The notes below the pieces were generated by a model. It had not been told where the DNA came from. It was given only the letters and a program-made list of their open reading frames with translations, and ran no database searches. Positions 7,047 through 54,718 of a DNA stretch of 64,000 nt are shown piece by piece (position 1 is the stretch's first letter; each line of letters begins with the position of its first letter). Source of the stretch: Candidatus Uhrbacteria bacterium (GTDB lineage: Bacteria; Patescibacteriota; Patescibacteriia; UBA9934; GWF2-40-263); assembly GCA_016188495.1 (NCBI GenBank), contig JACPHU010000009.1, positions 13,650 through 77,649 on the forward strand, written 5' to 3'. The translations under genes were made by a program, and so were the position numbers.

Positions 7047-7075
7047 ATTGACAAAACGTTCATTTTATGGTATAT
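7047..7075 (+). promoter_or_regulatory. Consensus sigma-70-type promoter (TTGACA-17-TATATT) for the Usp-like/CDF operon
   Basis: ttgaca aaacgttcattttatgg tatatt read directly; ~80 nt upstream of ATG 7155, which has SD aaaaggagag. Confidence 0.6.
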
Positions 7076-37683: not shown

Positions 37684-37757
37684 TCCCGGATCGTCTAACG
37701 GCAGGACGACTGGTTCTGGTCCAGTTAATCGGGGTTCGAATCCCTGTCCGGGAACCA
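37684..37757 (+). tRNA. tRNA-Gln (anticodon CTG)
   Basis: U1-A72 acceptor tcccgga/tccggga, D arm gtc-taacggcag-gac, anticodon stem actgg/ccagt with loop ttCTGgt, T arm cgggg-ttcgaat-ccctg, encoded CCA. Confidence 0.85.
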
Positions 37758-41702: not shown

Positions 41703-42899
41703 ATGAAACGAATTCTTCTCGTCAGTCCACCGTTTAGCGGCCACCTCAATGTGTTGAAGTTGCTTGCTTCTCAATATGCAGATGTCTATGATTTTTCGCT
41801 TGCTATTACGGGGTGGAAAAATATAGAACCGGATTTTTCTGGTTTTGATGGGGAAGTTGATCTTCTTGCCAAACAAGAATTAGACACAGCGGATCCAGCC
41901 ATGTGGACATTTTCGCGCATGAATGAACTGATTCCAGATTTACGCAACGTTGTGGACCGCATCCGTCCTGATTTGATCGTGTATGATTTCTTTTCTCTGG
42001 AGGGATATTGCGTTGGAAAAGAAAAGGGTATTACTGTTTGGTGTTCGATTCCTGCATTTCTTGGACCAAATGACAACCAGACATATCTTGAACACAAGTT
42101 TGCATTTTCAGAAAACCAAGAGGCTTGGAACCAATTGCAGCGCACGACAGATACGCTTCGCTCTTTGTCTCAAATCGAAATGATCTCAGATGGATTTCAT
42201 CTTCCGGGTGATGTGAATCTTGTATGGTCCTATGAATCCCTCATTCCAAAAAATTATCAAGAGGGCCGAGCAAATGCTCCGTATGTTTTTCTTGGAAGTT
42301 TGACGAAATCTTCGAATCTACGCATAGCCACAAAACGTCCGGTCGTTTATGTATCGTTTGGAACAGTGGTGATGGATAATCTTTGGAATCACCACAAAGA
42401 CATTCAAATGAATCTCCTGGCTTTTTTTCAAATGCTTGCAGAACTCTGGAGTGATGCGGAGTTCGATGTTGTGTGTGTGACACGTGGTAAACCAATTTTA
42501 CAACAAGCCCCCTCAAACTGGCGGCTTGTTGCCCATGCCAATCAATTAGAGGAACTTGCGTACGCAACCATTTTTGTGACACATGGTGGTTCCAATAGTT
42601 TTCATGAGTCGCTCGTGTCCGGTGTTCCAATGGTTGTCGTTCCTTTTTTTGGTGATCAAATTCTTGTCGCAAAACAGGTCGAAGCGCTTCAGATCGGAAC
42701 GTCGCTTGTGCAACAGGACAGTATTGATACAGGGAATGCGGGAACACAATTGAGCGCACACACGGCTGTACGCGTTGATCAGGCTGTTAAAAAAATTTTG
42801 GCCGATGTATCCGAATATAAACGTCACATCGAAATGACGGATTTACACGCGACATCGTTTCCGAAAGTCATTGAGGAATTTTTTCATCGGGAAATATAA
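41703..42899 (+). CDS. GT1-family glycosyltransferase (UDP-glycosyltransferase / MGT-like)
   Basis: Signature region HGGSNSFHESLVSGVPMVVVPFFGDQILVAKQVEALQIG, and N-terminal GHLN. Confidence 0.75.
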   Translation: MKRILLVSPPFSGHLNVLKLLASQYADVYDFSLAITGWKNIEPDFSGFDGEVDLLAKQELDTADPAMWTFSRMNELIPDLRNVVDRIRPDLIVYDFFSLEGYCVGKEKGITVWCSIPAFLGPNDNQTYLEHKFAFSENQEAWNQLQRTTDTLRSLSQIEMISDGFHLPGDVNLVWSYESLIPKNYQEGRANAPYVFLGSLTKSSNLRIATKRPVVYVSFGTVVMDNLWNHHKDIQMNLLAFFQMLAELWSDAEFDVVCVTRGKPILQQAPSNWRLVAHANQLEELAYATIFVTHGGSNSFHESLVSGVPMVVVPFFGDQILVAKQVEALQIGTSLVQQDSIDTGNAGTQLSAHTAVRVDQAVKKILADVSEYKRHIEMTDLHATSFPKVIEEFFHREI

Positions 42900-42908
42900 T
42901 CGAGATAT

Positions 42909-42944
42909 AAAAACACCCAGCGTTTGCTGGGTGTTTTTATTTTG
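42909..42944. terminator. Bidirectional Rho-independent terminator
   Basis: aaaaacacccagc-gttt-gctgggtgttttt. Confidence 0.75.
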
Positions 42945-42961
42945 GGAAAAAGAGAGGGTTT

Positions 42962-43825
42962 TTATGCAAGCAGTCCGAGTCCGACCATCCCGAGGGCTAC
43001 GGCAATGAGTATGAGAATGCGAGAAGGAGGAGTCTGTTTGCTTTTGAATAATGGACTGAATAACAATACGATGAGTGGTTGTAGGCCGCTGACGGTGCTC
43101 ACGAGTCCGGCGGATCCCAATCGAATAGCTCCCATCCGCAGGAGGCTGGCCGTAAGATCAAGAAGTTCATTCAGTACAAAGCGTTTGCGTAGGCGAGTAT
43201 TTTTTAGGGCCATTGTAATTTGACGGCGCGCAGGTGGGACAGCAAGAAGAAGTGTTATTGTGGCGATAAGGACACCAACAGACACCCAGGCAATCCCATC
43301 AAGAATAGAGGTGTGTCTGAAAATGTATTCTAAGAGAGTAAATTCAATAGCCGTTGTAAGCGAGGCGAGCAGCATCCATCCTACGGCAACAGCCGGGATG
43401 TGGTGTGAGCCGGTGGGTTGGTAGCTCGTCAAAAATGAACTTGCAATGAGGAAGATCATGGCGATGTATTCCTTGACAGCGAGTTGTTCACCCAGGAAGA
43501 GCCAGGTAGAAAAGACAACAAGAACGGGTGCGAGATTCCATAGCAGGATGACGTTTGCCGTATGTGTTTTTTCGAGAGCTTTGTAGTACGGCCAATAGAC
43601 GAACAATCCGACGGCTCCACCAAGCAGAGCAGCGACGACAATAGGGGGTGAGGGTGCGGCAATGTTGAGGAGGGGAATGAGTAACACAGGAATCGAGCCA
43701 AATAGGCCTGTGACAAACGTGAGGACATTTGGATCTTGTCGCTGACGTTCGAGGAGATCTGAATCGATAAGGTTGGTGAACCCCCAGAGAGTCGTTGCAA
43801 CGAGTGTGAGTAGAAGCCATGTCAT
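42962..43825 (-). CDS. EamA/DMT-superfamily transporter (10 TM)
   Basis: 287 aa, highly hydrophobic, with duplicated EamA-like halves. Confidence 0.7.
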   Translation of the reverse strand: MTWLLLTLVATTLWGFTNLIDSDLLERQRQDPNVLTFVTGLFGSIPVLLIPLLNIAAPSPPIVVAALLGGAVGLFVYWPYYKALEKTHTANVILLWNLAPVLVVFSTWLFLGEQLAVKEYIAMIFLIASSFLTSYQPTGSHHIPAVAVGWMLLASLTTAIEFTLLEYIFRHTSILDGIAWVSVGVLIATITLLLAVPPARRQITMALKNTRLRKRFVLNELLDLTASLLRMGAIRLGSAGLVSTVSGLQPLIVLLFSPLFKSKQTPPSRILILIAVALGMVGLGLLA

Positions 43826-44254
43826 AGTTCATACATGATAACAAAAATTACCTAGAGTTCTAGGTGATTTTTGTGGTGAGCCCAAGGAAGGCTGTCATGA
43901 ACTACCTCGAACGAGCACGCGAGCTCATGCCAGTTATGATGGGATGGAATCGCGACGTTGCAGGGTTTTTGGAGCGTCCTCGTGGCATCCAGAGCCTTGT
44001 GGTGACGTACTAATGCGACGTATTATTGGAGGCATCAATCAAAACATAAACCTATGGGAACAGAACGAAAAGACGCCTTGATCAATGTGGTGCAACATCT
44101 GCCCGCAGCAGCGCAACGTCCAGCCGATAAACCAGCAGGGACGGTCGTTACGAGTAGTGGCGAGCGTGTCACATTGGGCGAGAAGCCGAGTCACAACACC
44201 GCCATACTCTCTACTCAACAGCGCATGAACACAAAGAAGCAGGGATAATGAGAT

Positions 44255-44677
44255 ATGCAAAGCCACTTTGTGATAGACCCATCCGTAAAAGATCAATTTG
44301 TAGAACTCCGAGCGCAAGGCATGAGCTTTGCGTCGATTTCGTCGCGCCTTAACGTCTCGAAAGGTACGCTCGTCGCGTGGAGCAAGGAGTTGAAGGACGA
44401 ACTCGGTAACATGCGACAAATCCAGCTTGAAGCCATACGTGAGAAGTTCCGCATGGGCTCGCAGCGTCGCATGGAGCTATTCGTCAAGCAGTTGGATGCC
44501 GTGGAAGGTGAACTGGCCACTCGCACCCTCGACATCGTCTCAACGGAAAAACTATTCGATATGCTTGTGAAGCTCGGCCATGAGCTTAACGCGACCGATG
44601 CACCGCTTACGTTCAAGGAACAATCAAAGGAGTTCGTTCTCGACGACATCGCGTGCATGTCTGTTTGGGAAGCATAG
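44255..44677 (+). CDS. HTH DNA-binding protein (phage/ICE-type regulator or terminase-small-subunit-like)
   Basis: 140 aa with HTH QGMSFASISSRLNVSKGTLVAW. Confidence 0.5.
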   Translation: MQSHFVIDPSVKDQFVELRAQGMSFASISSRLNVSKGTLVAWSKELKDELGNMRQIQLEAIREKFRMGSQRRMELFVKQLDAVEGELATRTLDIVSTEKLFDMLVKLGHELNATDAPLTFKEQSKEFVLDDIACMSVWEA

Positions 44678-44827
44678 AAAAATTTGAACATTCCTGTACG
44701 AAAAATGACCGTCCTCGCGGCGGTTGTTTTGATATTTTGAAACGTTCATCAGATGCCAGTAAATAAAAAGAGCGCATCCGACGAGACGTAAGCCGAGTGG
44801 CTCTTGCCCCGCGCGGATGCGCGAGTG

Positions 44828-45439
44828 TCACTTGAGGTGGATCAACTCCATACCGCTCGCTTCCATGTCCGAGTCGTCGGTATGAGTGTCTCCACCCTCG
44901 ACGAGCACAGAGGAATAGTACCCATCGCCACGCCCATACGAGTCGATGAACAGCTTGTGGCCGTTCTCGAACTCGATGACGAGTGCCACGCCGTTCTGCG
45001 TCATGGCAACCACATGGCCGTTGCCAGCGAGTGCGAGTTGCTTGGACAAGAAGGCGGAGACGGCCTCCGCGTGCTGTCGTGCGGCCTCTTCGTGCCTTCG
45101 TTTCTCCTCGTCCTTCCGCCATTGCTCGTTCTTGGCCTTCGCACTCGCATTGGTCAGGGTCATGTGGACACCGACCTTCTCGACCTCGTGCCACCCGCCG
45201 CCTTCGATCTTCTTCCGCTGCTGTTTGACCATGCGCGGCCGCTTGACGATGATTTCCTCGACCTCAGGACTCCCGTGCTGGATGCTGCGGTTCTTCCCGT
45301 CCATGATGAGTCGAGACACGTCTCCACCGTCTGATGCAAGGACGAGCTCCTCGCCCTCAACGCAAGCCGAGGAGACCATCTGCCGCCCAAGAACCCATCC
45401 GCCCTTCCCGATTTCCGCAATCAACTCCTGAATGTCCAT
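44828..45439 (-). CDS. Hypothetical protein (~203 aa)
   Basis: Start MDIQELIAEI preceded by SD gaggag. Competing same-region frames have Leu/Arg-rich, low-complexity composition typical of GC-rich noise. Confidence 0.45.
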   Translation of the reverse strand: MDIQELIAEIGKGGWVLGRQMVSSACVEGEELVLASDGGDVSRLIMDGKNRSIQHGSPEVEEIIVKRPRMVKQQRKKIEGGGWHEVEKVGVHMTLTNASAKAKNEQWRKDEEKRRHEEAARQHAEAVSAFLSKQLALAGNGHVVAMTQNGVALVIEFENGHKLFIDSYGRGDGYYSSVLVEGGDTHTDDSDMEASGMELIHLK

Positions 45440-45570
45440 GATGACTCCTCGGTATATGTGTGAGAGGTGGTATGCCTGCAAGTGAAAGAAACGACTGAAA
45501 AATATACCACAAAACAGCCTTTTGTCAATGGCCGCATGGTCGTTTTTGTGATAAAATGGCCTAAAATCCT

Positions 45571-47286
45571 ATGGAACAGCCAAATACAGACATACAACGC
45601 GTTGCAGAGCTCGTAGCACGCCTCCAAGCCCGTTTTGGTGCTCAAGGCGTCGCGGATGCTGCGGGTAAGGGTGAGTCCCTTCGATACGTCATGTATGTCC
45701 GTAAGAGCACGGATACGGCCGACAAGCAGCAGCGCACCATCGGCGACCAAATCGCCTCGTGCAAGGAATACGCCGACCGCTTCGGGTTGCGTTGGACAGA
45801 GCTCATCCATGAGGAGGAGTCCGCCATGGTCTCCGATGGTCGTCCAAAGTTTCGAGCCATGCTAAACGCCATCAAGGCGGGCACGTTCGATGCCATCCTT
45901 GCATGGGCTCCAGACCGCCTTTCGCGCAACATGAAGGAAGCGGGCGAGATTATCGACATGCTCGACCGAGGCGACATCAAAGACCTCAAGTTCGCCAACG
46001 GGTTCGTATTCGCCAATGAACCGTCGGGCAAGATACTACTCGGTATCACGTTTGTCATGGCCAAGCAGTACAGCGACCAACACTCCCAAAACGTCAGGAA
46101 CGCGATTCATCGAAAGACCGCCGAAGGTAAGTGGGCAGGGGGCCGCGTTAAGCACGGCTACTACCGAAGCACCGCGCATTACCTTCTTCCCGACGGCGAG
46201 AACCATGAGCTCATCAAGGACGTCTTCCGCCTTCGTCTTGAAGGCACGCCGCAGAAGGACATCGCGGCATACCTCATCGAACGCGGCTATCCCGTCCAGA
46301 CGCCGCATACTAAGCATCGCAAGCTCGTCATCGACGACAAGTTCGTCTCGGATATCCTTCACGACGCGTTCTATGTCGGCGCCATGAAGTTCAGTAAACA
46401 ATTCGTCAACCTATTCGACAAGTACGACTTCGTGCCAGCAGTCTCGATCGACGACTTCGAGCGACTCTACAAGAGCGAGGGCGAGAAAATGGGAATCGAC
46501 CTCAAGAAAATTCTCAATCCGCGTGTACAGATCAAGGCCGCGCTCATGCAACAATTTGTTACATGCGGACGATGCGGAAAGTTCATGTCAACGGGCATTA
46601 CCAAGGGCAAATACTATTTTCGTTGTGATTCACCCAAGGCCGTCTTCCCGATGCATGGCAAGTCTACTCGTGCGAAAGTGGTACTCGACGCCTTATACGA
46701 GTTTCTGGAACATCATCCGCTCATCACCAATGCGGGCTACAAGCATTACGTCGCCGAGATGCAGCACATCCTGTCCGAGCAAAGCAAGGAAGCGGAACGG
46801 GAGTTAAAGTCGCTCGTCGCGCAACGTCAGCACGCCGAGGAGCGCATGGAGGACATGAAGGAACTTGCGCGAGGAGCAAAGGGTGACAAGGTGCTTGTGA
46901 AGGAATATCAGGCCGACATGAAGGCGAGCCTTGCAAAGGCAAAGGAACTGTCGGCACAAATTACGAAGCTCAAGATTGAACACCTCAACCCAAAGGAAGC
47001 AATCGCTACATTTGAAGAGTTCCATGAACTGTTTGCAAATCTTGCTCAACTCATACAAAAAATAGACAGCATGGCGGATTTGGATAGTATCATCAAAAAA
47101 ATCTTCATGAACGTCACGGTCACCGACCAAAAAGTCACTCAAATAACACAAAACTCCCCTTTCAGGGAGCTGTGTGTGGACGCCGATTCGGCGATGGTGA
47201 CCCTTCGGAGACTTCCTTGGAACCAATTTATGGAAGAGTTGAGGATGTGGATGCAGTTTCAGGAAATGTGTTTGGCTGAAATGTAA
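45571..47286 (+). CDS. Large serine recombinase (integrase)
   Basis: Resolvase catalytic domain YVMYVRKSTDTADKQ (nucleophilic Ser) and APDRLSRN, a recombinase domain, a Zn ribbon CGRCGKF...FRCDSP, and a C-terminal coiled coil. Confidence 0.85.
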   Translation: MEQPNTDIQRVAELVARLQARFGAQGVADAAGKGESLRYVMYVRKSTDTADKQQRTIGDQIASCKEYADRFGLRWTELIHEEESAMVSDGRPKFRAMLNAIKAGTFDAILAWAPDRLSRNMKEAGEIIDMLDRGDIKDLKFANGFVFANEPSGKILLGITFVMAKQYSDQHSQNVRNAIHRKTAEGKWAGGRVKHGYYRSTAHYLLPDGENHELIKDVFRLRLEGTPQKDIAAYLIERGYPVQTPHTKHRKLVIDDKFVSDILHDAFYVGAMKFSKQFVNLFDKYDFVPAVSIDDFERLYKSEGEKMGIDLKKILNPRVQIKAALMQQFVTCGRCGKFMSTGITKGKYYFRCDSPKAVFPMHGKSTRAKVVLDALYEFLEHHPLITNAGYKHYVAEMQHILSEQSKEAERELKSLVAQRQHAEERMEDMKELARGAKGDKVLVKEYQADMKASLAKAKELSAQITKLKIEHLNPKEAIATFEEFHELFANLAQLIQKIDSMADLDSIIKKIFMNVTVTDQKVTQITQNSPFRELCVDADSAMVTLRRLPWNQFMEELRMWMQFQEMCLAEM

Positions 47287-47436
47287 CTAATCGTGGAATT
47301 ACTGTTTGATTGTGGAGATGGCAAATTTGAGACAATTCCAATAATTGCCCCAATTCCCAACAAACTCCAAATGATTATTTTTCGACGTATAAAATCTAAG
47401 CTTGTTTTCCAATAATCTTGCCATAAGATCGTTGTT

Positions 47437-47991
47437 TTATTTGTTCTTTTCAAGAAATAAATTTCCAGTAAGAATATAAACCAAAATTATTTTTAAACTT
47501 AATCCTAAAAGGATCAACAATATTGAAAAACCAACGAGAAAAGAGATATCGTAGAACAAAATATATTGATTGATAACCATTTTTTCTTGTGTGTGTTCAC
47601 GTATAGACCAATATCCTGAGCAATTAGTCCCAAAGATTGAGCATTCAGTGATAGGGCCATCTTTAGAACTAATTTCAGAAACAAACTTAGAAAATTCTTT
47701 TGGACATTTTTCTTCAAACCAACTTCGATAAAGACTAATTTTGTTGGTAATACTTGGTTGATTAAAACTTTCAAAAATAAAACTTTCATTTTCCTTTATT
47801 TCATTTGGAATATCCTTCTCACTCAAAACACAACCTTCTTGAGCTGGAGATTTTAATGTAATTGCTTGATATCTATACTCATTATCGAATAACTTAAGAG
47901 AAGACAAAACTAATAGAAGCGATAATCCAAGATAAAAAATTTTTAATAATCGAAACCATGGTGAACTAAAAAATCCTTTTGTTGTTTCCAT
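47437..47991 (-). CDS. Hypothetical membrane protein in AT-rich cargo (~184 aa)
   Basis: Start METTKGFF. TM at the N-terminus and near the C-terminus. A 150+ codon ORF in ~28% GC DNA is unlikely by chance. Confidence 0.5.
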   Translation of the reverse strand: METTKGFFSSPWFRLLKIFYLGLSLLLVLSSLKLFDNEYRYQAITLKSPAQEGCVLSEKDIPNEIKENESFIFESFNQPSITNKISLYRSWFEEKCPKEFSKFVSEISSKDGPITECSIFGTNCSGYWSIREHTQEKMVINQYILFYDISFLVGFSILLILLGLSLKIILVYILTGNLFLEKNK

Positions 47992-48034
47992 ATTTTCATT
48001 GTATTGACCCAGATGGAATCTTTGAGAGATCACT

Positions 48035-48187
48035 ATGCCACCTTATGCACCAGATCATAATCCGATTGAACATGTTTGGAATACAGCGAAAGGGGAAACA
48101 ACAAACATTCAACAGGAAAACTTTGAAGCAATGAAAATAACTTTTCATAATTTTATTGATGGACGAAATTTCAATTATGCAATTTAA
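48035..48187 (+). pseudogene. IS630/Tc1-mariner-family transposase C-terminal remnant
   Basis: Translates to MPPYAPDHNPIEHVWNTAKGETTN...FHNFIDGRNFNYAI, the conserved PPYSPDLNPIE catalytic-E region. No upstream DDE domain. Confidence 0.7.
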
Positions 48188-48212
48188 CAGTTTGTTTTGG
48201 GATGGCTATAAA

Positions 48213-48671
48213 TTAGAAAGAGGATATCCAACATAACTCAATTTTTTCAAAAAGTTTTTGCTGATTTTGAGATGAATTCCATTTTTTCAGATTTTCAAAA
48301 AATAAATCTTCGTAATCATTACCTGCTAAAGTATTTAAAGCTTCTAAGTAAACATGTACTTCATTATAAATAGAACTACATGAGCTAGCTTCAGTGAACC
48401 TATTATCATTTACTTGATTGATAAATTCTTGTTCTACTAAATTTAAAAATTCTTTTTTAAGCTCACCTTCATTATTTAAAGAAAAATTATTAATCTGTCT
48501 GTGAAGTTCTTTATTATCCTCATCCAATATATCTGTTTTTCCATTTAAAATAACTTTCTCAGTTTCTAGTGTACCAATTTTGTTCTTCAATATTTCAATT
48601 TCAGTGCATAAGTATGCAATCATTCCAATAAAACTGATTCCAACAATAATCCACAATAAATATTTTTTCAT
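48213..48671 (-). CDS. Hypothetical protein with N-terminal TM/signal anchor and coiled coil (152 aa)
   Basis: MKKYLLWIIVGISFIGMIAYL then a heptad-like region; AT-rich. Confidence 0.45.
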   Translation of the reverse strand: MKKYLLWIIVGISFIGMIAYLCTEIEILKNKIGTLETEKVILNGKTDILDEDNKELHRQINNFSLNNEGELKKEFLNLVEQEFINQVNDNRFTEASSCSSIYNEVHVYLEALNTLAGNDYEDLFFENLKKWNSSQNQQKLFEKIELCWISSF

Positions 48672-49030
48672 ATCTTAGTTAAAAATAATTTAATCATCAT
48701 GAGAGGTTGGCAATAAAGCCCCCAAAATCATAAGTCCTAAAAAGACTAAAATTGCATCTAAAAACATATTATTTTCTTTCTTTTAAAAACACAAAGCCCT
48801 CCGCCAGCCGCAGTCTTTCGACTGCCTGTATCCATTTCTGGGTACAGCCATCCCTGGTTGCTGAACGAAGGGTCCAGTATCAGGGATGGATTTGTGCCAT
48901 GCCTTACATGTGCAAGGTTTAGGCATCTATTTTAATTGTGAGTTTAGTGTAGAGAATTGAGACAAACATGACAAGCAAATAATCAAAAATCTTTAAAATT
49001 TAAAGGATTTTTGTTAAAATATACTCATAA

Positions 49031-49783
49031 ATGAAAATGATTATGAGAAAAGATTTAAAAGAAGAATTCGAATCTCTGATAAAAGAGGGATACGAAATTA
49101 CAAGAATTGCCGATGAAGGTCTAGAACAACACTCGGCTACCGCAACACTAATCCATGAAATTCATCATAAGTTTATAATGTGGAAACAAAGTGCGAAGGA
49201 TCTTTTAAAAGATGAGGCTAAAAATGAAGAATTAGATATTGGATTTCTATTTGAAGGAGATGGAGTACCTTTAATCAAAGCTGGACCAGAATACAGCGAC
49301 CCAATGAGTGAACGATCACAAAAATTATTTACAAACATTCGTATAGCAGCCTCCAGTCATTTGAGAAAAATAAAAGAAATTTATGAAGAGGTGGAGAAAA
49401 ATTTTAAGATTAAAAAATCATTTATTGTCAGAATTAAAAATATTTCTCTTTCCAAGGAAGATTGTTTATTAAAAATAAATGATGGTGAAAAAATAATCTT
49501 CTTTAAATCAAAAAAAGGAAAAGAAGATTTTGAAAAAGAAACCAAACAGTTTAAAATTTTGTACCATCTTTGGGAGTTTCGACAAGAAAAAAAAGGAAGT
49601 AGCATTTTAAAAAAAAGTGAAATTGTTACACTAAAAAATCTTCAAATTTGTAGTCAAAGTAAAAGTGCATCCGCAGTCAGTAAAACTATTGAGAGATTAA
49701 ATAAAAGATTTAAAAAAGAAGGGGTAACTATAGAGATAGAATGTGAAAATGAAAAATGTCGTCTAATTATAGAAAAGACCTAG
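49031..49783 (+). CDS. Hypothetical Lys-rich protein (250 aa)
   Basis: Long ORF in ~28% GC DNA. No recognised motifs. The C-terminal ~70 aa may be a winged-helix-like domain; weak. Confidence 0.45.
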   Translation: MKMIMRKDLKEEFESLIKEGYEITRIADEGLEQHSATATLIHEIHHKFIMWKQSAKDLLKDEAKNEELDIGFLFEGDGVPLIKAGPEYSDPMSERSQKLFTNIRIAASSHLRKIKEIYEEVEKNFKIKKSFIVRIKNISLSKEDCLLKINDGEKIIFFKSKKGKEDFEKETKQFKILYHLWEFRQEKKGSSILKKSEIVTLKNLQICSQSKSASAVSKTIERLNKRFKKEGVTIEIECENEKCRLIIEKT

Positions 49784-49957
49784 ACGGTTTCTTGACTATT
49801 TCTACGACATTATTTTTTTCTATTTTTTTAAAAAACAGTAGGAATTTGTAAAAAGTTTAAAAAAATTCGACATCAAAACAAATATTTAAAACTTATCACA
49901 AAAAACAGTTGCTAAAGTCGAAGTATAAAAGCTTCGATTTTTTTATTCTAAATTTTT

Positions 49958-50218
49958 ATGACTATGACTACGCACGGGATTCAAGAAAATGAAATTTACC
50001 GAACATCGGATTTTTCTCAGGCAATTGCACTTTATTGTCTTGATTTTGTTCTGGAAGCAGTTGATAAAACAACGCCAAATAGGTGTGGATTCTTGTTTAA
50101 ACGGACATGCGAACTTGATCGGGCTATCGAATGGTTCTGGAAACGTGAGCTTCGTATTGAACCTCAGGCTTATTTTCAGGCTTCTAAGGTCTTGCGGACG
50201 CGTCTACATGACCGTTAA
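49958..50218 (+). CDS. Hypothetical small protein (86 aa)
   Basis: ORF upstream of the primase gene. A second ~56-aa ORF at 50224-50394 overlaps the primase start. Confidence 0.35.
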   Translation: MTMTTHGIQENEIYRTSDFSQAIALYCLDFVLEAVDKTTPNRCGFLFKRTCELDRAIEWFWKRELRIEPQAYFQASKVLRTRLHDR

Positions 50219-50359
50219 GACCTATGCTCAGCATTGCCCGAACAAAGGAACTCATCGGCTATGCATCTATCTCGGATGAACAGGCGGAAGCTATCCGAGA
50301 CCAGTTTCGTGATCTCGCAGAATTGATTTTTATAAATTGGAAAACTAACTTGAAACAAT

Positions 50360-52249
50360 ATGACAATGAATCCTCAAACAATCCCAATTAGTGAATACCT
50401 TGACCGGAAGGGTATCGAATACCGGGAACAAGAAAACGAGCTGATAGCACGCTGTATTTTCCACGACTGTGACGATGATAGTAAAGGTATAGAGGCACAT
50501 TGGTATATCAACAAGCACACAAGCCAGTACGACTGCAAAAAATGTGGTCAACAAGGCAACATTTTTACTCTAAGAGAACATTTTGACGATCCAATGTCAG
50601 AAGTCCTTCTTGATGGTGCAAAAGCACTTAACGACCACCCTATAAAGAATGAGTTATTAAATACAGCACAAAACATCTGGAACTCATCAACACAGGTTCC
50701 CAAAGAGTTTGCCTATACGATAAAAAAGAGAATCTCTACGCACGGATCACGCTTCAAGGATGGTAATTTGGTTCTCCCAATGTATAACGGAAACGGCACG
50801 CTAATTTCTCTTCAATTCATTCAAGCAGACGGAAAGAAAAAGTTTCTGCCTGGAGGTAAAACAGTCGGGTCTTATTACATCATTGGCGAAGTGAAAGACG
50901 TTATATGTATTGCGGAAGGATTTGCAACCGCGGCTAGCATTCTTGAAGCAACAGGACATGCTGTCGCCATTGCCTTTTCTGCCGGGAATCTTAAAGCAAC
51001 GGCTCAGGCGATCAAAAACAAGTACACTAATGTAAAGCTAATTGTATGCGCGGACATTGACGATTATGGTCTTACCAAGGCCAAAGAGGCAGCTCAGGTC
51101 GTCAGTGCCTTTCTCGCTATACCTGTCTTTAAACCTGAAGAACGGATCGATGAAAAACCTCCTACGGACTTTAATGATCTGGCTATTTTGCAGAGTGCAG
51201 AAAAAGTGAAGAAAACAATCGAATCGGCAGAAAAAGTAAAAAACAAGTATCAATTCACAGCACTTGCGGACTTATTAGAGGAACCGGAAGAAAAAATTGA
51301 GTGGATCGTTGAAGATCTTCTTCCTCATGGTGGTTTCTCCATCATCGTCGCGAAACCAAAAGTTGGTAAATCTACACTGGTAAGACAACTTGCGTTTTGT
51401 GTTGCAAGCGGAAGCACTTTTCTAGGAAGAACTACGAGCAAGGGGCGCGTTCTCTACTTATCGCTTGAAGAAAAACGTAGCGAAGTGCGGAACCATTTTA
51501 GAATGCTTGGAGCAACCAGAGAGGAAGACATCGGGATTTGTTTTGATCAAACACCAGAAAATGCTCTCGAGTGGTTAAGAGAAGAAATCGATCGATCCGC
51601 GCCAGTGCTGGTCATTATTGATACCTTATTCCGATTCGCACGCGTTTCTGATGTAAATGACTATGCAAAAACACTGGCCGCTCTTGATCCGCTTCTGTCG
51701 CTTGCACGAAGTCACTCCGTACACGTTATGGGCGTTCATCACGCCAGAAAAGGTGATGGGTTTGGGGCAGATACTACATTGGGTTCAACGGCCATTTTTG
51801 GAAGTGTAGATACAGCTATCGTTTTAAAACGAACCGATAGCAAACGCACAGTCGAAACCCAGCAACGCTATGGGGTGGATATGGAACCAACCGTTCTAAC
51901 ATTTGATCCTGATACAAAACGCACCGAGTTAGGCGAAATAAAACAACAGGACGATGTTCAGGGTATCAAAGATGAGATTATTGCTTTTCTTCAATCTGAA
52001 AGTGAATCATCCACAGAAAAGACGATCACTGAAAATACAGAAGGTCGGACTAAGTTAAAACGAAAGGCTTTACGCGATCTTGTTGTCGAAGGTTTGGTGG
52101 CGCGAACAGATTCCGGAAAGAAAGGCGATCCCTACCATTATTCTTGTTCCCTTGTTCCCGCTATATATACGGAACAAGGGAACAAGCAATCGAATGATGG
52201 TGTTGAGCGAAAAACGGACGATCAAATTCTTGAAGAACTTGGTTTATAA
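50360..52249 (+). CDS. DNA primase (CHC2 zinc finger plus TOPRIM) fused to a C-terminal RecA-like/P-loop (AAA_25, RepA-like) domain
   Basis: Zn finger CIFHDCDDDSKGIEAHWYINKHTSQYDCKKCGQQG. TOPRIM VICIAEGFATAAS...VCADIDDYG. P-loop GGFSIIVAKPKVGKSTLV...LYLSLEE. Confidence 0.75.
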   Translation: MTMNPQTIPISEYLDRKGIEYREQENELIARCIFHDCDDDSKGIEAHWYINKHTSQYDCKKCGQQGNIFTLREHFDDPMSEVLLDGAKALNDHPIKNELLNTAQNIWNSSTQVPKEFAYTIKKRISTHGSRFKDGNLVLPMYNGNGTLISLQFIQADGKKKFLPGGKTVGSYYIIGEVKDVICIAEGFATAASILEATGHAVAIAFSAGNLKATAQAIKNKYTNVKLIVCADIDDYGLTKAKEAAQVVSAFLAIPVFKPEERIDEKPPTDFNDLAILQSAEKVKKTIESAEKVKNKYQFTALADLLEEPEEKIEWIVEDLLPHGGFSIIVAKPKVGKSTLVRQLAFCVASGSTFLGRTTSKGRVLYLSLEEKRSEVRNHFRMLGATREEDIGICFDQTPENALEWLREEIDRSAPVLVIIDTLFRFARVSDVNDYAKTLAALDPLLSLARSHSVHVMGVHHARKGDGFGADTTLGSTAIFGSVDTAIVLKRTDSKRTVETQQRYGVDMEPTVLTFDPDTKRTELGEIKQQDDVQGIKDEIIAFLQSESESSTEKTITENTEGRTKLKRKALRDLVVEGLVARTDSGKKGDPYHYSCSLVPAIYTEQGNKQSNDGVERKTDDQILEELGL

Positions 52250-52352
52250 CATTCTCAGACATTATAAGAAATTCTAGGAGATATCCCAATAACCTAACTC
52301 GTCTAATCCTTAATGATTTCGGTCAAAACAAAAGTGAAACAGAGGTAAATTT

Positions 52353-52976
52353 ATGGCAAGAGGCACTTGTGAGGGGCGCACAAAAATATCAATCTTTTGG
52401 CTACGACAAAAGGGATATCTGACTCCTGATATGCCTTGGCGATGGGACTCCTTGAGTTGGACAAACACTTATTCAGGCGAGAGTGCTGGGAGTTTGAGTT
52501 ATCAAATCAAGCTTGATGAGAACAAAGAACCAAACAGCAAAGTAGGGTATATGAGGTTGATGTATACCAATACGAGCGCTTGGTCGGGTGAAAAGACTGA
52601 AATTGATTACGAGATTCCTATTGTCACCACAGGATGCAATTATGGAGGCATTCGTTTCTGGTTCAGATGTCCTCTTAACGCAAACGGCGTTTACTGTGGA
52701 AGACGGATTGGGGTTTTATACAAGATTTCACAGTATTACGGTTGTCGCCATTGCGGAGACCTTGTGTATGCTGCGCAAAATGAAAAAAAGAGTTCTAGGG
52801 ACATGGTTTGCTGCCCTGATCTTGATAAAGCCCACGACAATATCAGACGCTTCCATTACAACGAAAAGCCGACGAAAAAGTACAGAAAATATCTCAAATT
52901 GGAGCAAAAATTTAATGATCAGATCCAGGGATGGATGATTCGCATGGCTTCAGATGATAAAGATTTTGTGCTATGA
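52353..52976 (+). CDS. Hypothetical protein with a Cys4 zinc-ribbon (207 aa)
   Basis: CPLNANGVYCGRR...CRHCGDLVY. Confidence 0.45.
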   Translation: MARGTCEGRTKISIFWLRQKGYLTPDMPWRWDSLSWTNTYSGESAGSLSYQIKLDENKEPNSKVGYMRLMYTNTSAWSGEKTEIDYEIPIVTTGCNYGGIRFWFRCPLNANGVYCGRRIGVLYKISQYYGCRHCGDLVYAAQNEKKSSRDMVCCPDLDKAHDNIRRFHYNEKPTKKYRKYLKLEQKFNDQIQGWMIRMASDDKDFVL

Positions 52977-53139
52977 TACAAGTGTTGACCCAATGCTTTC
53001 ATGCCCGTTTTTTGATCATTTTTGTTGTCCATAATGGGCGGCTTCTGCCAACAAAGTGGTCTTCGGGCTATGCGTTGGGTCAACCAGAGCCGCCCTTTTG
53101 GTTATTAGGATGTAAGAAATTGTAAGATACATAGATCAC

Positions 53140-54684
53140 ATGAAAGCCATCATCTACACACGTGTTAGCTCTAACGAGCAGGTTAAAGGAACCTCACTCG
53201 AAGACCAAGAAACCAAATGTCGAGAGTATTGTGCTCAAAAAAACATTGAGGTTTTGAAAGTTTTTCGAGAAGAGGGTGAGTCTGCCAAAACTGCGGATCG
53301 TACCGAGTTTTTAAGAGCTTTAGAATTTTGTCGAAAGAATAAAAGTAAAGTCGATATTTTTGTTGTGGTTAAAGTGGATCGCTTTGCTAGAAATACAGAA
53401 GACCATTTTGGAGTACGTAAAATTCTACTCGACTACGGTGTGTCTTTGCATTCCGTCACCGAACCAATAGGAAACAGTCCAGTTGAAAAGCTACTTGAGA
53501 CCGTTCTTGCTGGCACAGCAGAATTTGATAATGCAATCCGCTCACAGAGAAGTATTGATGGGATGATCGCACGCGTTCGACAAGGCATCACACCTTGGAA
53601 ACCGCCGATTGGATATTTAAGTAACCAATCAAAAAAACGAGGAGAAAAGAAAAACGAACCTGACGAAATAGATCCTGCAATTTTCCCCATTATTCAACGA
53701 ACACTAAAGCGTTTTTCCAGAGAGGAGATTGAGCAGTCGGAATTATGTGCTTATTTGGATCAGGAAGGTCTATCAAAAATTCGAGGTCGAAAAACTACCA
53801 AACAGATGGTTGAAAAAATTATCGGTCAGTATTTGAAATTTTACGCTGGTATAATCATGAACCCTTGGCTTGAAGGTGAAGAGATCAGGGGATTGCATCG
53901 TGCGATGATTACCGAAGACGAAATGCATCAGATTATCGCCATTCGGACAGGTAAATATATTAAGAAACAGCCACGTAAGAGTTTTAACCCACTTTTTCCT
54001 CTAAAGAAAACAATCGTGTGTGGAACCTGTGACGGAAACCTCACAGCAAGTCGATCAAAAGGGAATGGGGGAGAGTACGGTTACTATCACTGCTACAGTC
54101 CGTCTTGTGAGATGCGAAATAGAACAATTGCGAAAGATATTGTGGAAAGGGAATTCATTCAGCTTTTACAAACTCTGAGACCAAGCAGACAGCATCTATC
54201 TCTACTTCGAGAAACTGTTATGGATCTTTGGGAGGAAAAAAGAGAATTATTTGAATCGGATGCGAGTAAATTTAAGAAACAACTCGATTCCCTCACAGTT
54301 AAGCGTCAGAGAATTTTTGATATGCGTGAGGACGGTTCGTATACCAAGGAAGATTTTTTGGAACGTAAAGCTGAGATCGATAATGAAATGGCCGCAGTTC
54401 GTATATCGTTGAATGAATCCAAGATTGATCAATTTGATATTGAAGCAGCGATCACTTACGCAACGAAGTTCGTTGAGAACCTTGATCGTCAATGGGTGGA
54501 TCTAAAAGATGATCTCAAACCTCGGTTCCAAAAACTGATTTTTCCAGAAGGAGTTCTTTATTTTAAGGATCATGGTTTTCAAACCACGAAATTGTCGCTG
54601 ATGTTACAACAAAAAGAGACCGCTCGTGATGAGCAGTCCCTTTTGGTGACCCCACGGGGAATCGAACCCCGATTTACAGGATGA
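53140..54684 (+). CDS. Large serine recombinase (integrase) overlapping tRNA-Glu
   Basis: MKAIIYTRVSSNEQ (nucleophilic Ser), VKVDRFARNTEDH, recombinase domain, Zn ribbon CGTCDGNL...YYHCYSPSCE, coiled coil. Its last ~41 nt overlap the 3' part of tRNA-Glu on the opposite strand. Confidence 0.85.
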   Translation: MKAIIYTRVSSNEQVKGTSLEDQETKCREYCAQKNIEVLKVFREEGESAKTADRTEFLRALEFCRKNKSKVDIFVVVKVDRFARNTEDHFGVRKILLDYGVSLHSVTEPIGNSPVEKLLETVLAGTAEFDNAIRSQRSIDGMIARVRQGITPWKPPIGYLSNQSKKRGEKKNEPDEIDPAIFPIIQRTLKRFSREEIEQSELCAYLDQEGLSKIRGRKTTKQMVEKIIGQYLKFYAGIIMNPWLEGEEIRGLHRAMITEDEMHQIIAIRTGKYIKKQPRKSFNPLFPLKKTIVCGTCDGNLTASRSKGNGGEYGYYHCYSPSCEMRNRTIAKDIVEREFIQLLQTLRPSRQHLSLLRETVMDLWEEKRELFESDASKFKKQLDSLTVKRQRIFDMREDGSYTKEDFLERKAEIDNEMAAVRISLNESKIDQFDIEAAITYATKFVENLDRQWVDLKDDLKPRFQKLIFPEGVLYFKDHGFQTTKLSLMLQQKETARDEQSLLVTPRGIEPRFTG

Positions 54685-54718
54685 GAACCTGCTGTCCTAA
54701 CCGTTAGACGATGAGGCC
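54644..54718 (-). tRNA. tRNA-Glu (anticodon CTC)
   Basis: Minus strand ggcctca-tc-gtct-aacggtta-ggac-a-gcagg-ttCTCat-cctgt-aaat-cgggg-ttcgatt-ccccg-tggggtc-a-CCA. U33 and A37 are present; the acceptor stem has two G-U pairs. Confidence 0.7.

What the first reader, a model, noticed from the sequence alone, without database searches (positions are those of the whole stretch)
43860..54718. Composite integrated mobile element at tRNA-Glu with two large serine recombinases
This is the clearest accessory region in the window.

Background GC (~45%) jumps at ~43.86 kb to a visibly GC-rich block (43.86-47.29 kb). That block carries an HTH protein, an orphan 203-aa protein and serine recombinase 1 (YVRKST...DRLSRN, Zn ribbon). 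It is followed by an extremely AT-rich block (47.3-49.8 kb) with orphan genes and an IS630 transposase remnant. A ~45% GC block follows (49.9-54.7 kb) with small regulators, a primase fused to a P-loop ATPase, a Zn-ribbon protein and serine recombinase 2 (YTRVSSNEQ...DRFARN).

The stop codon of recombinase 2 lies inside a minus-strand tRNA-Glu(CUC). An integrase gene abutting or overlapping a tRNA 3' end is the classical signature of an element integrated at a tRNA. Two recombinases and three compositions suggest either two tandem or nested elements, or an element that has captured foreign cargo.

Serine integrases only need a 2-bp crossover, so the absence of a long flanking direct repeat is expected. 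A weak match to the tRNA 3' end (tttt-g-tggtga-gccca-agg vs ttttggtga-cccca-cgggg) sits at ~43862-43884.
Basis: partly seen in the sequence, partly recalled or inferred. Interest (0 to 1): 0.72.

Follow-up and report, generated by a model that had tools for sequence, protein, structure and literature searches.

The report
Two stacked serine-integrase elements at tRNA-Glu
Two small mobile elements of an uncultivated Uhrbacteria (CPR) bacterium sit one behind the other at the 3' end of a tRNA-Glu gene, and their serine integrase genes span their own attachment sites, so each insertion swaps the end of an integrase protein and replaces the tRNA's terminator.

Summary
The 10.8-kb stretch from 43,874 to 54,650 is foreign DNA at an intact tRNA-Glu(CUC) in a Candidatus Uhrbacteria genome.

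It is a tandem array, not one composite element:
- E1 (43.88-47.20 kb) is a minimal 3.3-kb element with recombinase SR1.
- E2 (47.20-54.65 kb) carries AT-rich cargo, a LOOT RNA, DUF5659, a 55-aa protein, a primase-helicase, a 207-aa protein and recombinase SR2.

All three junctions share the core TGGTGA(C), which is the tRNA's CCA end, discriminator and last acceptor bases.

In both recombinase families the attachment site lies inside the 3' end of the recombinase gene. Integration therefore cuts off the native C-terminal tail:
- SR1's own tail lies orphaned at the left junction.
- SR1 now carries SR2's tail.
- SR2 runs antisense into the tRNA.

The recombinase 3' coding region also encodes, antisense, a terminator-like hairpin directly after the tRNA.

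Dozens of related loci support this picture. They include a circular 15.8-kb relative with an intact attP, a second E1-E2 array, a solo E1, and a 98%-identical strain whose homology stops at the core. LOOT RNA recurs in E2-type elements.

Mobility and the function of the tail swap are inferred, not shown.

The parts
43843..43873 (-). Former terminator of tRNA-Glu (host-side B arm of the left junction): A-run, hairpin ACCTAGA/TCTAGGT, T-run.
   Evidence: The terminator scan finds (-) 43865..43850. Relatives without an adjacent recombinase show the same layout, terminator then TGGTGAC then tRNA. The sequence is identical in the 98%-identical strain L172, where a different element follows it.
43874..43880 (.). 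attL1 core TGGTGAG. The first 6 nt are the tRNA's CCA, A73, C72 and U71 read on the + strand. Position 7 differs from the tRNA (G instead of C).
   Evidence: Alignment of all junctions on the core. Homology with L172 ends here.
43881..44013 (+). Orphaned native C-terminal tail of SR1 (the P1' arm): PRKAVMNYLERARELMPVMMGWNRDVAGFLERPRGIQSLVVTY*.
   Evidence: An HMM built from three SR1-family proteins with non-tRNA tails (P0149, P0158, P0162) hits this fragment at E = 7.3e-12 among 84,747 fragments. Joined to SR1 at the core it is in frame.
44054..44248 (+). E1 gene, 64 aa, no family hit.
   Evidence: Homologs sit at the same position in the E1-type elements of L089 (51%) and L172 (41%).
44255..44677 (+). 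E1 gene, 140 aa, weak helix-turn-helix (HTH_Tnp_1, below the Pfam cutoff).
   Evidence: A 53%-identical homolog sits at the same position in L089.
44828..45439 (-). E1 gene, 203 aa, orphan.
   Evidence: No Pfam, PHROG or PADLOC hit. Called as a gene in the Logan contig.
45571..47286 (+). SR1, a large serine recombinase of 571 aa. Residues up to ...SAMVT (to 47,201) are its own. The last 28 aa (47,202-47,286) are the SR2-type tail.
   Evidence: Pfam. 342 homologs, most ending in tRNA-antisense peptides. The SR2-family tail HMM hits residues 544-567 (E = 7e-6).
47152..47193 (-). Antisense hairpins inside the SR1 3' end (P1 arm). One is terminator-like, AGCTCCCTGAAAGGGGAGTT followed by a T-rich tail (47,171..47,152). 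The other is the small hairpin CGCCG-ATT-CGGCG (47,181-47,193), next to the core.
   Evidence: Terminator scan. Folds of the same arm in L005 and L178 give -23.7 and -21.8 kcal/mol, z about -5. Residue pairs at the two hairpin positions are (A,A) 10, (T,V) 9, (A,V) 2, (T,A) 0, plus 8 sequences with other residues at the first position.
47195..47201 (.). Middle junction core TGGTGAC (P1 arm joined to P2' arm).
   Evidence: The same hybrid junction occurs in L089 at position 7048.
47202..47286 (+). SR2's displaced native tail and P2' arm: LRRLPWNQFMEELRMWMQFQEMCLAEM*.
   Evidence: 36 of the first 40 nt match the natural attP of the circular relative L088. The control arm matches at 21/85. P0006, 77% identical to SR2, ends ...VVT|LRRLPWNQFIEELRGW.
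47437..48671 (-). AT-rich cargo of E2: a 184/198-aa orphan (-), a 50-aa IS630/DDE_3 remnant (48,035-48,187, +) and a 152-aa orphan (48,213-48,671, -).
   Evidence: GC 0.26-0.33. No family hits. A weak DDE_3 hit is on record.
48810..48925 (-). LOOT RNA (Rfam RF03000), transcribed divergently from the p250-to-SR2 gene row.
   Evidence: 74.3 bits against a gathering score of 46.4, E = 4e-12. The same RNA occurs in 20 related recombinase loci and in none of 80 control loci.
49031..49783 (+). E2 gene, 250 aa, orphan, followed by a terminator-like hairpin at 49,914-49,941.
49958..50391 (+). DUF5659 protein (86 aa) and a 55-aa protein (50,224-50,391).
   Evidence: Pfam 3e-9. The 55-aa protein has homologs in 43 of about 87 recombinase loci and DUF5659 in 14.
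50360..52249 (+). Primase-helicase (Toprim + AAA_25), the presumed replication module of E2.
   Evidence: Pfam. phrog_2249 DNA primase 5e-53. 26-32% identity to phage primase/helicases.
52353..52976 (+). 207-aa Cys-rich protein, conserved next to SR2-type recombinases.
   Evidence: Homologs of 38-50% identity in L088, L089 and L093. No family hit.
53140..54684 (+). SR2, a large serine recombinase of 514 aa. The last 11 codons and the stop (54,651-54,684; 12 residues, PRGIEPRFTG, counting the codon that straddles the core) are the antisense of tRNA-Glu.
   Evidence: Pfam. 1,879 homologs. 70 of the top 120 end in tRNA-antisense peptides and 39 in WN-type native tails.
54607..54643 (-). Antisense terminator inside the SR2 3' end (P2 arm). 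A 13-bp hairpin is followed by UUUUUGUUG, directly after the tRNA's CCA.
   Evidence: RNAfold -23.2 kcal/mol, z = -5.25. Family-wide, this window has mean z -1.87 against about 0 at control offsets, Mann-Whitney p = 1.7e-10.
54644..54718 (-). tRNA-Glu(CUC), intact. Its 3'-terminal 7 nt (54,644-54,650) are the attR2 core.

Best explanation
The region is a tandem array of two independent integrative elements. Each was inserted by its own large serine recombinase (LSR) at the extreme 3' end of tRNA-Glu(CUC) in a Candidatus Uhrbacteria chromosome.

Shown by sequence comparison:
1. The order is host terminator, core, SR1's displaced tail, E1 with SR1, core, SR2's displaced tail, E2 with SR2, core, tRNA.
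2. In both LSR families the attachment site (attP) lies inside the recombinase gene, about 28-45 codons before the native stop. The shared core is TGGTGA(C), which is CCA, the discriminator and the last acceptor bases of the tRNA.
3. Integration therefore leaves the whole tRNA body host-derived. It detaches the recombinase's native C-terminal helix (the WN motif tail). It fuses the recombinase ORF to the antisense tRNA.
4. In an array, the upstream recombinase inherits the tail of the element downstream of it.
5. The last ~50 nt of the recombinase gene before the core form, on the tRNA's strand, a stable hairpin. In the tRNA-Glu group this hairpin is followed by a U-run.

Inferred, not shown:
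- That hairpin replaces the tRNA's lost terminator.
- Because it has the same layout as the host terminator arm, the tRNA-proximal junction still looks like a free target. Newcomers can then insert there and push older elements outward, where they decay.
- E2 replicates on its own when excised, using its primase-helicase.
- LOOT RNA is an element-encoded regulatory or replication RNA.
- The tail swap makes the recombinase protein differ between the free and the integrated state, and could bias directionality or stability.
For: Host and site:
- CPA2 is 91% identical to that of Ca. Uhrbacteria GW2011_GWF2_39_13.
- The tRNA-Glu/CPA2 pairing is conserved in 7 relatives.

Left junction:
- A terminator hairpin plus TGGTGA, as in relatives that have no adjacent recombinase.
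- In L172, a strain 98.2% identical over 1.3 kb of flank, homology stops exactly at the core and a different element follows.

Tails:
- The SR1-type tail HMM, built without the window, hits 43,864-44,010 at E = 7.3e-12.
- SR1's present tail matches the SR2-family tail HMM.
- It also matches the attP of P0006 in L088 (36/40 nt).
- Both restored ORFs are in frame.

A free form exists:
- L088 is a 15.8-kb contig with an exact 30-nt terminal overlap, which marks it as circular.
- Its SR2-like recombinase carries the native tail.

Generality:
- Of 64 metagenomic SR2-family loci with a complete 3' end, 28 stop inside an antisense tRNA and 8 read through one. The tRNAs are Ala, Glu, Lys and Leu.
- Orphan tails lie upstream in at least 10 loci, next to a terminator plus core where this was inspected.

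Other arrays and solo copies:
- L089 has the same E1-E2 order, with diverged proteins (55% and 75% identity) and different cargo.
- L103 has two SR2-type recombinases in tandem.
- L178 has a solo 3.2-kb E1.
- L005 has an SR1-type recombinase directly at the tRNA, ending at the same stop codon and in the same frame as SR2.

Antisense hairpin.

LOOT association: 22 hits in 0.91 Mb of recombinase loci and 0 in 1.15 Mb of control loci.
Against: - No excised circle, empty site or junction-spanning read was obtained for this strain. Mobility today is inferred.
- Canonical serine integrases do not recombine attP with attL or attR. Insertion next to a resident element therefore needs the relaxed or mimicked half-site that I propose, which is untested.
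- The same final structure would arise by the reverse order of insertion, or by integration of a pre-formed E1+E2 cointegrate.
- The exact crossover dinucleotide is not determined.
- The terminator role of the hairpin is inferred from folding. A clear U-run is seen mainly in the tRNA-Glu group.
- Some 'unoccupied' relatives may hold decayed elements. L007 has an orphan tail 8 kb upstream.
- L089 contains a 113-nt stretch between two junctions that the simple model does not explain.
Confidence: 0.8

Rival explanations
1. One composite element moved as a unit. E1 and E2 first fused as circles by recombination between their two attP sites. The resulting hybrid site (P2 arm plus P1' arm) then recombined with the tRNA.
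For: This route gives exactly the observed order of arms, so the window alone cannot exclude it. The same E1-then-E2 order recurs in L089. The circular relative L088 also carries two serine recombinases.
Against: Other combinations exist: an SR2-type element followed by an E1-type in L172, two SR2-types in L103, a solo E1 in L178 and L005, and solo E2-type elements. In L088 the second recombinase is on the other strand and the SR2-like attP is unrecombined. The outer elements in L089 and L172 are decayed and the tRNA-proximal ones are intact, which fits stepwise stacking better.
Confidence: 0.12
2. A fixed relic. The elements were once mobile, are now immobile, and are inherited vertically. 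The recombinases have lost function or been co-opted.
For: No excision product was observed. The array is identical in two sequencing runs. An E1-E2 array also exists in a different Uhrbacteria genome. Both recombinases lack their own native tails.
Against: Both ORFs are full length with complete catalytic domains. A 98%-identical strain has a different array at the same core. The sister species (CPA2 91% identical) carries a recombinase only 56% identical to SR1. This means turnover is faster than host divergence.
Confidence: 0.06
3. A prophage or a phage satellite integrated at the tRNA.
For: The primase-helicase matches phage primase families. Serine integrases are common in temperate phages.
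Against: No capsid, terminase, tail or lysis gene was found. Of ten proteins, only the primase hits a PHROG of known function. No close relatives of SR1 or SR2 were found in 2.9 million viral contigs. The elements are 3.3 and 7.4 kb long.
Confidence: 0.02

Closest known systems
Phage-type large serine integrases (Listeria A118/U153, staphylococcal phage integrases, phiC31, Bxb1)
   Same: Resolvase catalytic domain, zinc-ribbon domain and a long coiled coil. The AlphaFold2 model of P0006 has helices at 350-426. The sites are short and share only a minimal core. The gene sits at the end of the element.
   Different: Only 24-25% identity, and only over residues 1-476. These recombinases have an extra C-terminal region and a detachable tail. 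The attP lies inside the gene rather than beside it. The target is the 3' end of a tRNA. Stacking next to a resident element is not expected from the known rule that attP does not recombine with attL or attR (abstract of PMC3783163).
tRNA-targeting genomic islands with tyrosine integrases (Islander/TIGER type)
   Same: The integrase gene abuts the tRNA 3' end, the tRNA stays functional, and tandem arrays form at one tRNA (PMC7192596).
   Different: The enzyme family is different. Only about 6 nt of the tRNA are shared, rather than tens of nt. Mageeney et al. 2020 wrote that use of a t(m)RNA gene by a serine integrase had not been reported, and that their 14/297 cases needed experimental proof.
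SSV-type archaeal integrases and mycobacteriophage integration-dependent immunity
   Same: The attachment site lies inside a coding sequence, so integration changes the protein product. Sources: review PMC8371274 listed (not read here), and my own knowledge of Broussard et al. 2013.
   Different: Those are tyrosine recombinase systems. SSV integration splits the integrase gene in two. The mycobacteriophage case truncates the repressor. Here only the last 28-45 residues of a serine integrase are exchanged.
Tycheposons of Prochlorococcus
   Same: Small tRNA-integrating elements with a site-specific integrase, a primase/helicase module and variable cargo. They form arrays (bioRxiv 10.1101/2020.12.28.424599).
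   Different: 910 of 937 use tyrosine recombinases. The host phylum is different. No attP-in-gene design or LOOT RNA is described there. No homology was tested.
LOOT RNA motif (Rfam RF03000)
   Same: A full-length match well above the gathering score.
   Different: The family carries no assigned function in Rfam (type 'sRNA'). Its placement inside serine-integrase elements, divergent from the replication/integration gene row, comes from this analysis. I found no paper text on it.

Membership tests
Large serine recombinase (serine integrase) | N-terminal resolvase catalytic domain with the nucleophilic serine | tested here: met
   PF00239 covers the full domain: SR1 2.3e-24 (residues 40-188), SR2 4e-31 (residues 3-149). 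The motifs YVRKST and YTRVSS are present.
Large serine recombinase (serine integrase) | Recombinase domain (PF07508) after the catalytic domain | tested here: inconclusive
   SR1 passes (28.5 bits, cutoff 21.1). SR2 has no PF07508 hit at E <= 0.01, although many of its close homologs are annotated with it only rarely.
Large serine recombinase (serine integrase) | Zinc-ribbon domain with an inserted coiled coil | tested here: met
   SR2 PF13408 scores 27.7 bits (cutoff 25.3). SR1 scores 21.7 bits, below the cutoff. The AlphaFold2 model of the 77%-identical P0006 shows strands at 292-318 and long helices at 350-426.
Large serine recombinase (serine integrase) | Recombination of short attP and attB sites at a 2-bp crossover | not testable with these tools
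   Only the shared core TGGTGA(C) and the arm order are seen. The crossover dinucleotide is undetermined.
Integrated element at a tRNA gene | Intact tRNA at one end, and a repeat of its 3' terminus at the other end | tested here: met
   The tRNA is intact. TGGTGA plus the former terminator is present at 43,843-43,879.
Integrated element at a tRNA gene | The site is unoccupied or differently occupied in close relatives | tested here: met
   L172, with a 98.2%-identical flank, diverges at the core and holds another array. More distant relatives have a terminator directly at the tRNA. A strictly empty site in the same species was not found.
Integrated element at a tRNA gene | An excised circular form | tested here: inconclusive
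   Not found for this strain. A related element, L088, assembles as a circle with an intact attP.
LOOT RNA (RF03000) | Score at or above Rfam's gathering threshold over the full model | tested here: met
   74.3 bits against 46.4, model positions 1-121.
Prophage | Virion structural and packaging genes | tested here: not met
   Only the primase hits a PHROG of known function. No close relatives of either recombinase in viral contigs.
Integrative conjugative or mobilizable element | Relaxase, coupling protein or type IV secretion genes | tested here: not met
   No such Pfam domain in any ORF of 43.9-54.7 kb.
Tycheposon | Membership as defined for Prochlorococcus elements (hallmark gene profiles) | not tested
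   Only a functional resemblance, taken from the preprint text.
IS630 insertion sequence | Complete DDE transposase with terminal inverted repeats | tested here: not met
   Only a 50-aa fragment with a weak DDE_3 hit.

The most novel reading that the evidence does not exclude
These Patescibacteria serine integrases form a distinct system in which the attachment site is built into the gene's 3' end.
- The enzyme senses its own state. The free form carries a WN-helix tail. The integrated form carries a tRNA-antisense peptide or a neighbour's tail. This could set the direction of recombination or the enzyme's stability without, or in addition to, a separate directionality factor.
- The same DNA doubles as a replacement tRNA terminator.
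- That terminator mimics the host half-site. This licenses the attP x attR-type insertion that classical serine integrases avoid, and so builds stacks of elements at one tRNA.
- LOOT RNA would be the elements' own replication or maintenance RNA.
Probability: 0.3. Interest if true: 0.85.

Novelty: new variant of a known kind. Interest (0 to 1): 0.72.

Why it matters
- Serine integrases are the main tools for inserting large DNA. Their strict attP x attB rule and their avoidance of tRNA genes are treated as family traits. A 2020 survey stated that tRNA use by a serine integrase was unreported and needed experimental proof (PMC7192596).
- This study found a large, well-populated clade: 1,879 SR2-type and 342 SR1-type homologs at E <= 1e-10.
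  - It targets the 3' ends of tRNA-Glu, -Ala, -Lys and -Leu.
  - It carries attP inside the gene.
  - It appears to tolerate insertion next to a resident element.
- The clade gives concrete, testable att sites and two natural protein forms, with and without the tail. These can be used to study how directionality is set.
- It describes a common class of small replicative integrative elements in CPR bacteria, whose mobile elements are little known.
- It places an orphan RNA motif (LOOT) in a defined genetic context.

Tried and rejected
- **Prophage reading.** Rejected: no structural genes, and no close relatives of SR1 or SR2 in IMG/VR.
- **Defence-island reading for the cargo.** PADLOC gives nothing meaningful.
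- **My first alignment of SR1's end.** I aligned it with L005 through '...FQEMCL' against '...FRELCL'. That was a false register. The true break is after ...SAMVT.
- **The second TGGTGAC at 44,000.** I first suspected another junction. It is only the conserved end (..L[AV]VTY*) of the SR1-type tail.
- **Logan contigs breaking inside the tRNA T-arm.** I considered this as a sign of excision polymorphism. I dropped it, because a shared tRNA k-mer explains it equally well.
- **Exact-core search for left junctions.** It found only one case. A tail HMM was needed.
- **My simple 'hairpin plus T-run' counter.** It gave many hits in control windows and was discarded. Only the folding z-scores are used.
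- **A strictly empty EamA/tRNA-Glu/CPA2 site.** Not found. P0241 gave a differently occupied site, P0242 a short contig with another gene, and P0246 a different genomic context.
- **Supplement of Weinberg et al. 2017 on LOOT.** Not held.
- **Literature searches.** Searches for serine integrases at tRNAs in CPR, for attP within the integrase gene, and for DUF5659 found no prior description. This covers only the held library.

Full report
**1. The observation**

The composition steps are real. Both flanks have 45.1% GC. The block 43,881-47,201 has 53.4%, the block 47,287-49,950 has 29.1%, and the block 49,951-54,643 has 41.7%.

ARAGORN and Rfam find an intact tRNA-Glu(CUC) at 54,644-54,718 on the minus strand.

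- an EamA transporter on the left and a CPA2 antiporter on the right;
- two full-length large serine recombinases, SR1 (45,571-47,286, 571 aa) and SR2 (53,140-54,684, 514 aa);
- a Toprim+AAA_25 primase-helicase and a DUF5659 protein;
- several orphan ORFs and a 50-aa IS630-like remnant.

SR2's stop codon lies 41 nt inside the tRNA.

**2. Host and site**

The flanking CPA2 protein is 91% identical to that of Candidatus Uhrbacteria GW2011_GWF2_39_13. The 80 loci retrieved through CPA2 include many Uhrbacteria and other Patescibacteria, alongside archaeal and proteobacterial MAGs.

The tRNA-Glu(CUC)/CPA2 pairing is conserved in seven of these relatives. In relatives with no recombinase at the tRNA, the tRNA's 3' end is followed by an ordinary terminator. 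The layout is A-run, hairpin, T-run, then TGGTGACCCC.

Window 43,843-43,879 has exactly this layout (AAAAATTACCTAGAGTTCTAGGTGATTTTTG-TGGTGA). The terminator scan detects the hairpin.

The strongest boundary evidence comes from L172, a contig from NCBI assembly GCA_040960375.1.
- Its EamA is 99% identical to the window's.
- Its DNA is 98.2% identical to window 42,561-43,887.
- Homology ends at the core TGGTGA, and a different element follows.

**3. Two families of recombinase with the attachment site inside the gene**

In the sister species (L005), an SR1-like recombinase sits directly at tRNA-Glu. It is 56% identical to SR1. Its ORF ends at the same TGA, in the same frame, as SR2 does in the window (...VTPRGIEPRFTG*).

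SR2 has 1,879 homologs at E <= 1e-10, and the named ones among the best hits are from Patescibacteria. SR1 has 342. The C-termini of these homologs fall into two classes.
- Most end in peptides that are the antisense translation of a tRNA. The G-x-E-P motif comes from the T-loop.
- The rest end in a conserved tail.
  - SR2-type tail: ...LV(x6)WNQIIxELxxWQxL...
  - SR1-type tail: ...P[KR][KR]xxMNFLExxRxxxxxxxWxxxxxxFLxxxxxxxxL[AV]VTY.

At the DNA level I examined 64 metagenomic SR2-family loci with a complete 3' end.
- 28 stop inside an antisense tRNA.
- 8 read through a whole tRNA.
- The tRNAs are Ala-TGC (16), Glu-CTC (6), Lys, Leu, Glu-TTC and Ala-GGC.
- At least 15 carry the WN-type tail and have no tRNA nearby.

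L088 carries a recombinase 77% identical to SR2 that has the WN-type tail. L088 is a 15,841-nt contig whose ends overlap by exactly 30 nt, which is the signature of a circle in a k=31 assembly. The WN tail is therefore the form of the free element, and the tRNA-derived end is the form of the integrated element.

**4. The window is a tandem array**

The break between recombinase body and tail falls at TGGTGAC in every case.
- SR1 in the window ends ...SAMVT|LRRLPWNQFMEELRMW..., which is an SR2-type tail.
  - It matches the SR2-family tail HMM.
  - Its DNA matches the attP of L088 at 36 of the first 40 nt after the core. The sequence at the left junction matches at only 21/85.
- The left junction encodes, in the recombinase frame, PRKAVMNYLERARELMPVMMGWNRDVAGFLERPRGIQSLVVTY*.
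  - An HMM built from three SR1-family proteins with the long tail (the window was not included) hits it at E = 7.3e-12 among 84,747 translated fragments.
- Joining SR1 to this fragment, and SR2 to the fragment after SR1's core, restores two in-frame native proteins.

The order is therefore: host terminator, core, P1' | E1 | P1, core, P2' | E2 | P2, core, tRNA. This is two elements in tandem.

Position 7 of the core is C next to the tRNA. It is G at the window's left junction and T in L172. The exchange therefore lies within TGGTGA, which covers CCA, A73, C72 and U71. The tRNA body is entirely host DNA. This step is an inference from three sequences.

**5. Independent examples**

- **L089** is a contig from another metagenome (ENA ERZ27250210; a JGI contig of 27.9 kb carries the same genes). 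It has the same E1-E2 order at tRNA-Glu next to a CPA2 gene.
  - It shows the same three junction types.
  - E1's genes are syntenic: the 64-aa protein at 51% identity, HTH at 53%, SR1 at 55%.
  - E2's core is syntenic: DUF5659, the 55-aa protein, AAA_25, the 207-aa homolog, and SR2 at 75%.
  - The cargo is entirely different: SocA_Panacea, DUF4328 and HTH_17.
- **L178** shows a solo 3.2-kb E1-type element at tRNA-Glu, with its own orphan tail.
- **L103** has two SR2-type recombinases in tandem, the first with a WN tail.
- **The P0001 locus** shows a solo E2-type element with AAA_21/RloB cargo.
- **Orphan WN tails** lie upstream of the recombinase, on the same strand, in L096, L098, L120, L136, L138, L148, L151, L152, L169 and others. 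Where I inspected them, a hairpin plus (T)GGTGGAC precedes them.
- **L089 and L172** have decayed outer elements, with only a recombinase 3' scar left, and intact tRNA-proximal elements. L008 keeps only a 45-nt SR1-type scar at its tRNA.

**6. An antisense terminator in the recombinase's 3' end**

On the tRNA's strand, the 50 nt that follow the CCA end lie inside the recombinase coding region.
- For SR2 they fold into a 13-bp hairpin followed by UUUUUGUUG (-23.2 kcal/mol, z = -5.25).
- SR1-type arms give two hairpins, the second followed by UUUUGUGUU (-22 to -24 kcal/mol, z about -5).
- The scan tool independently reports the SR1 hairpin at (-) 47,171..47,152.
- Across 37 non-redundant integrated loci the mean z is -1.87. 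Five control offsets inside the same genes give about 0 (Mann-Whitney p = 1.7e-10).
- In the SR1 family, the small hairpin next to the core covaries. The residue pairs are Ala/Ala (10) or Thr/Val (9), with two Ala/Val, no Thr/Ala, and eight sequences with other residues at the first position. These correspond to CGCCG/CGGCG and CACCG/CGGTG.

I infer that the element brings a replacement terminator for the tRNA. This arm has the same layout as the host arm (A-run, hairpin, T-run, core). The tRNA-proximal junction may therefore still be accepted as a target, which would explain the stacking and the decay gradient. Known serine integrases do not recombine attP with attL or attR (abstract of PMC3783163). 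This is the least secure step.

**7. What the elements are**

- E2 has a phage-type primase-helicase (phrog_2249 5e-53; 26-32% identity to phage primases). It has no virion, conjugation or known defence genes.
- Neither recombinase has a close relative in IMG/VR.
- The closest characterised recombinases are Listeria and Staphylococcus phage integrases. They are 24-25% identical, and only over residues 1-476.
- The AlphaFold2 model of the native-tail relative shows the usual domains, a long coiled coil, and the tail as a terminal helix (residues 510-530, pLDDT about 77-84) after a low-confidence linker.
- E2 is best described as a small self-replicating integrative element with exchangeable cargo. 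In function it resembles tycheposons.
- E1 is a minimal element with no replication gene.

**8. LOOT RNA**

Rfam finds a full-length LOOT RNA at 48,810-48,925 (-) in the AT-rich block (74.3 bits, gathering score 46.4).
- The same family is found in eight related loci by Rfam.
- A model built from these hits finds 22 copies in 0.91 Mb of recombinase-selected loci. In the circular L088 the copy spans the contig junction.
- The model finds none in 1.15 Mb of CPA2-selected control loci.
- 14 of 37 loci with at least 5 kb of upstream flank have LOOT 1.1-6.6 kb upstream of the recombinase. In 20 of 21 cases it is on the opposite strand.
- Its role is unknown. I propose regulation of replication or maintenance, with low confidence.

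**9. Prior knowledge**

Mageeney et al. 2020 wrote that use of a t(m)RNA gene by a serine integrase had not been reported, and that their 14/297 cases required proof. My searches found no description of serine integrases whose attP lies in their own 3' end, of such elements in CPR bacteria, or of DUF5659. The library is incomplete, so priority cannot be asserted.

**10. Verdict**

The composite is resolved as a tandem array. The wider finding is a widespread clade of tRNA-targeting serine integrases with an in-gene attachment site, a swapped tail, an antisense terminator and an associated LOOT RNA. This is a new variant of a known kind. Its anatomy is well supported by comparison. Its dynamics and the function of the tail swap are still inferred.

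Noticed in passing
window 48810-48925 (-); L088, L093, L096, L098, L103, L104, L115, L122, L131, L135, L137, L138, L144, L148, L150, L151, L152, L165, L169: LOOT RNA (RF03000) is a recurrent part of SR2-type recombinase elements. It almost always lies on the strand opposite the recombinase, 1-7 kb upstream. It is absent from 1.15 Mb of control loci. None of the 8 native-tail recombinases on long contigs had it.
   Followed up: yes
window 54607-54643 (-) and 47152-47193 (-): The 3' coding ends of both recombinases fold, on the antisense strand, into terminator-like hairpins directly after the tRNA. The small SR1 hairpin covaries (Ala/Ala against Thr/Val codon pairs), so the conserved 'QNSPFREL...D[AT]DS[AV]MVT' motif may be under dual constraint.
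   Followed up: yes
L089 1-3350: A third, decayed layer lies to the left of E1. In order it holds: terminator + TGGTGAC + orphan WN tail (228-290); an 801-aa gene; an SR2-type 3' scar + core + only 13 nt of tRNA (2990-3056); 113 nt of unexplained sequence; then another terminator-like arm + core + SR1-type tail. The simple stacking model does not explain the truncated tRNA piece.
   Followed up: partly
L172 (NCBI JBFOMN010022133.1), whole contig: A near-identical strain (flank 98.2% nt) has a different array at the same core. It holds a decayed SR2-type tail, an NYN-domain gene and others, then an SR2-type arm scar joined to an intact SR1-type tail and a homolog of the 64-aa E1 protein.
   Followed up: partly
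L088 (Logan ERR3094280_160642), whole contig: A circular 15.8-kb relative of E2. It carries a second serine recombinase (461 aa) on the other strand, ParB, a PD-(D/E)XK protein, Z1, an NgoFVII-type restriction enzyme with a methylase, a PIN protein, and LOOT RNA next to an HTH_17 gene.
   Followed up: partly
L008 7860-7907; L007 441-572: L008 keeps only a 45-nt SR1-type 3' scar in front of tRNA-Glu. L007, which I first took as unoccupied, has an orphan WN tail 8 kb upstream of the tRNA, with a subtilase-like gene between. It may hold a decayed element.
   Followed up: partly
window 50224-50391 (+): The 55-aa protein is the most widely conserved companion of SR2-type recombinases, with homologs in 43 of about 87 loci. 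It has no family assignment. It is a candidate directionality factor or regulator.
   Followed up: no
window 48035-48187 (+): A 50-aa fragment of an IS630/DDE_3-type transposase in the 29% GC cargo block. It has no partner fragment and no inverted repeats were looked for.
   Followed up: no
window 54663-54672; L001, L003: Logan contigs of SRR12113419 break inside the tRNA T-arm, with only a 10-nt overlap between the island contig and the CPA2 contig. Probably a shared-k-mer effect rather than excision polymorphism.
   Followed up: partly
window 53140-54684: The NCBI record annotates this recombinase as a 373-aa 'zinc beta ribbon domain-containing protein' (P0008, 100% identical over 73% of SR2). 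The window holds an uninterrupted 514-aa ORF.
   Followed up: no
window 37684-37757 (+); L010 7367-7564: In L010, tRNA-Gln(CTG) lies directly beside tRNA-Glu. In the window, tRNA-Gln lies 6 kb to the left of the array on the other strand. This suggests a rearrangement of this tRNA neighbourhood.
   Followed up: no
L115 11983-12091 (+): A SAM riboswitch lies just downstream of a cluster of three tRNAs, the first of which is occupied by an SR2-type element. Unrelated to the finding.
   Followed up: no
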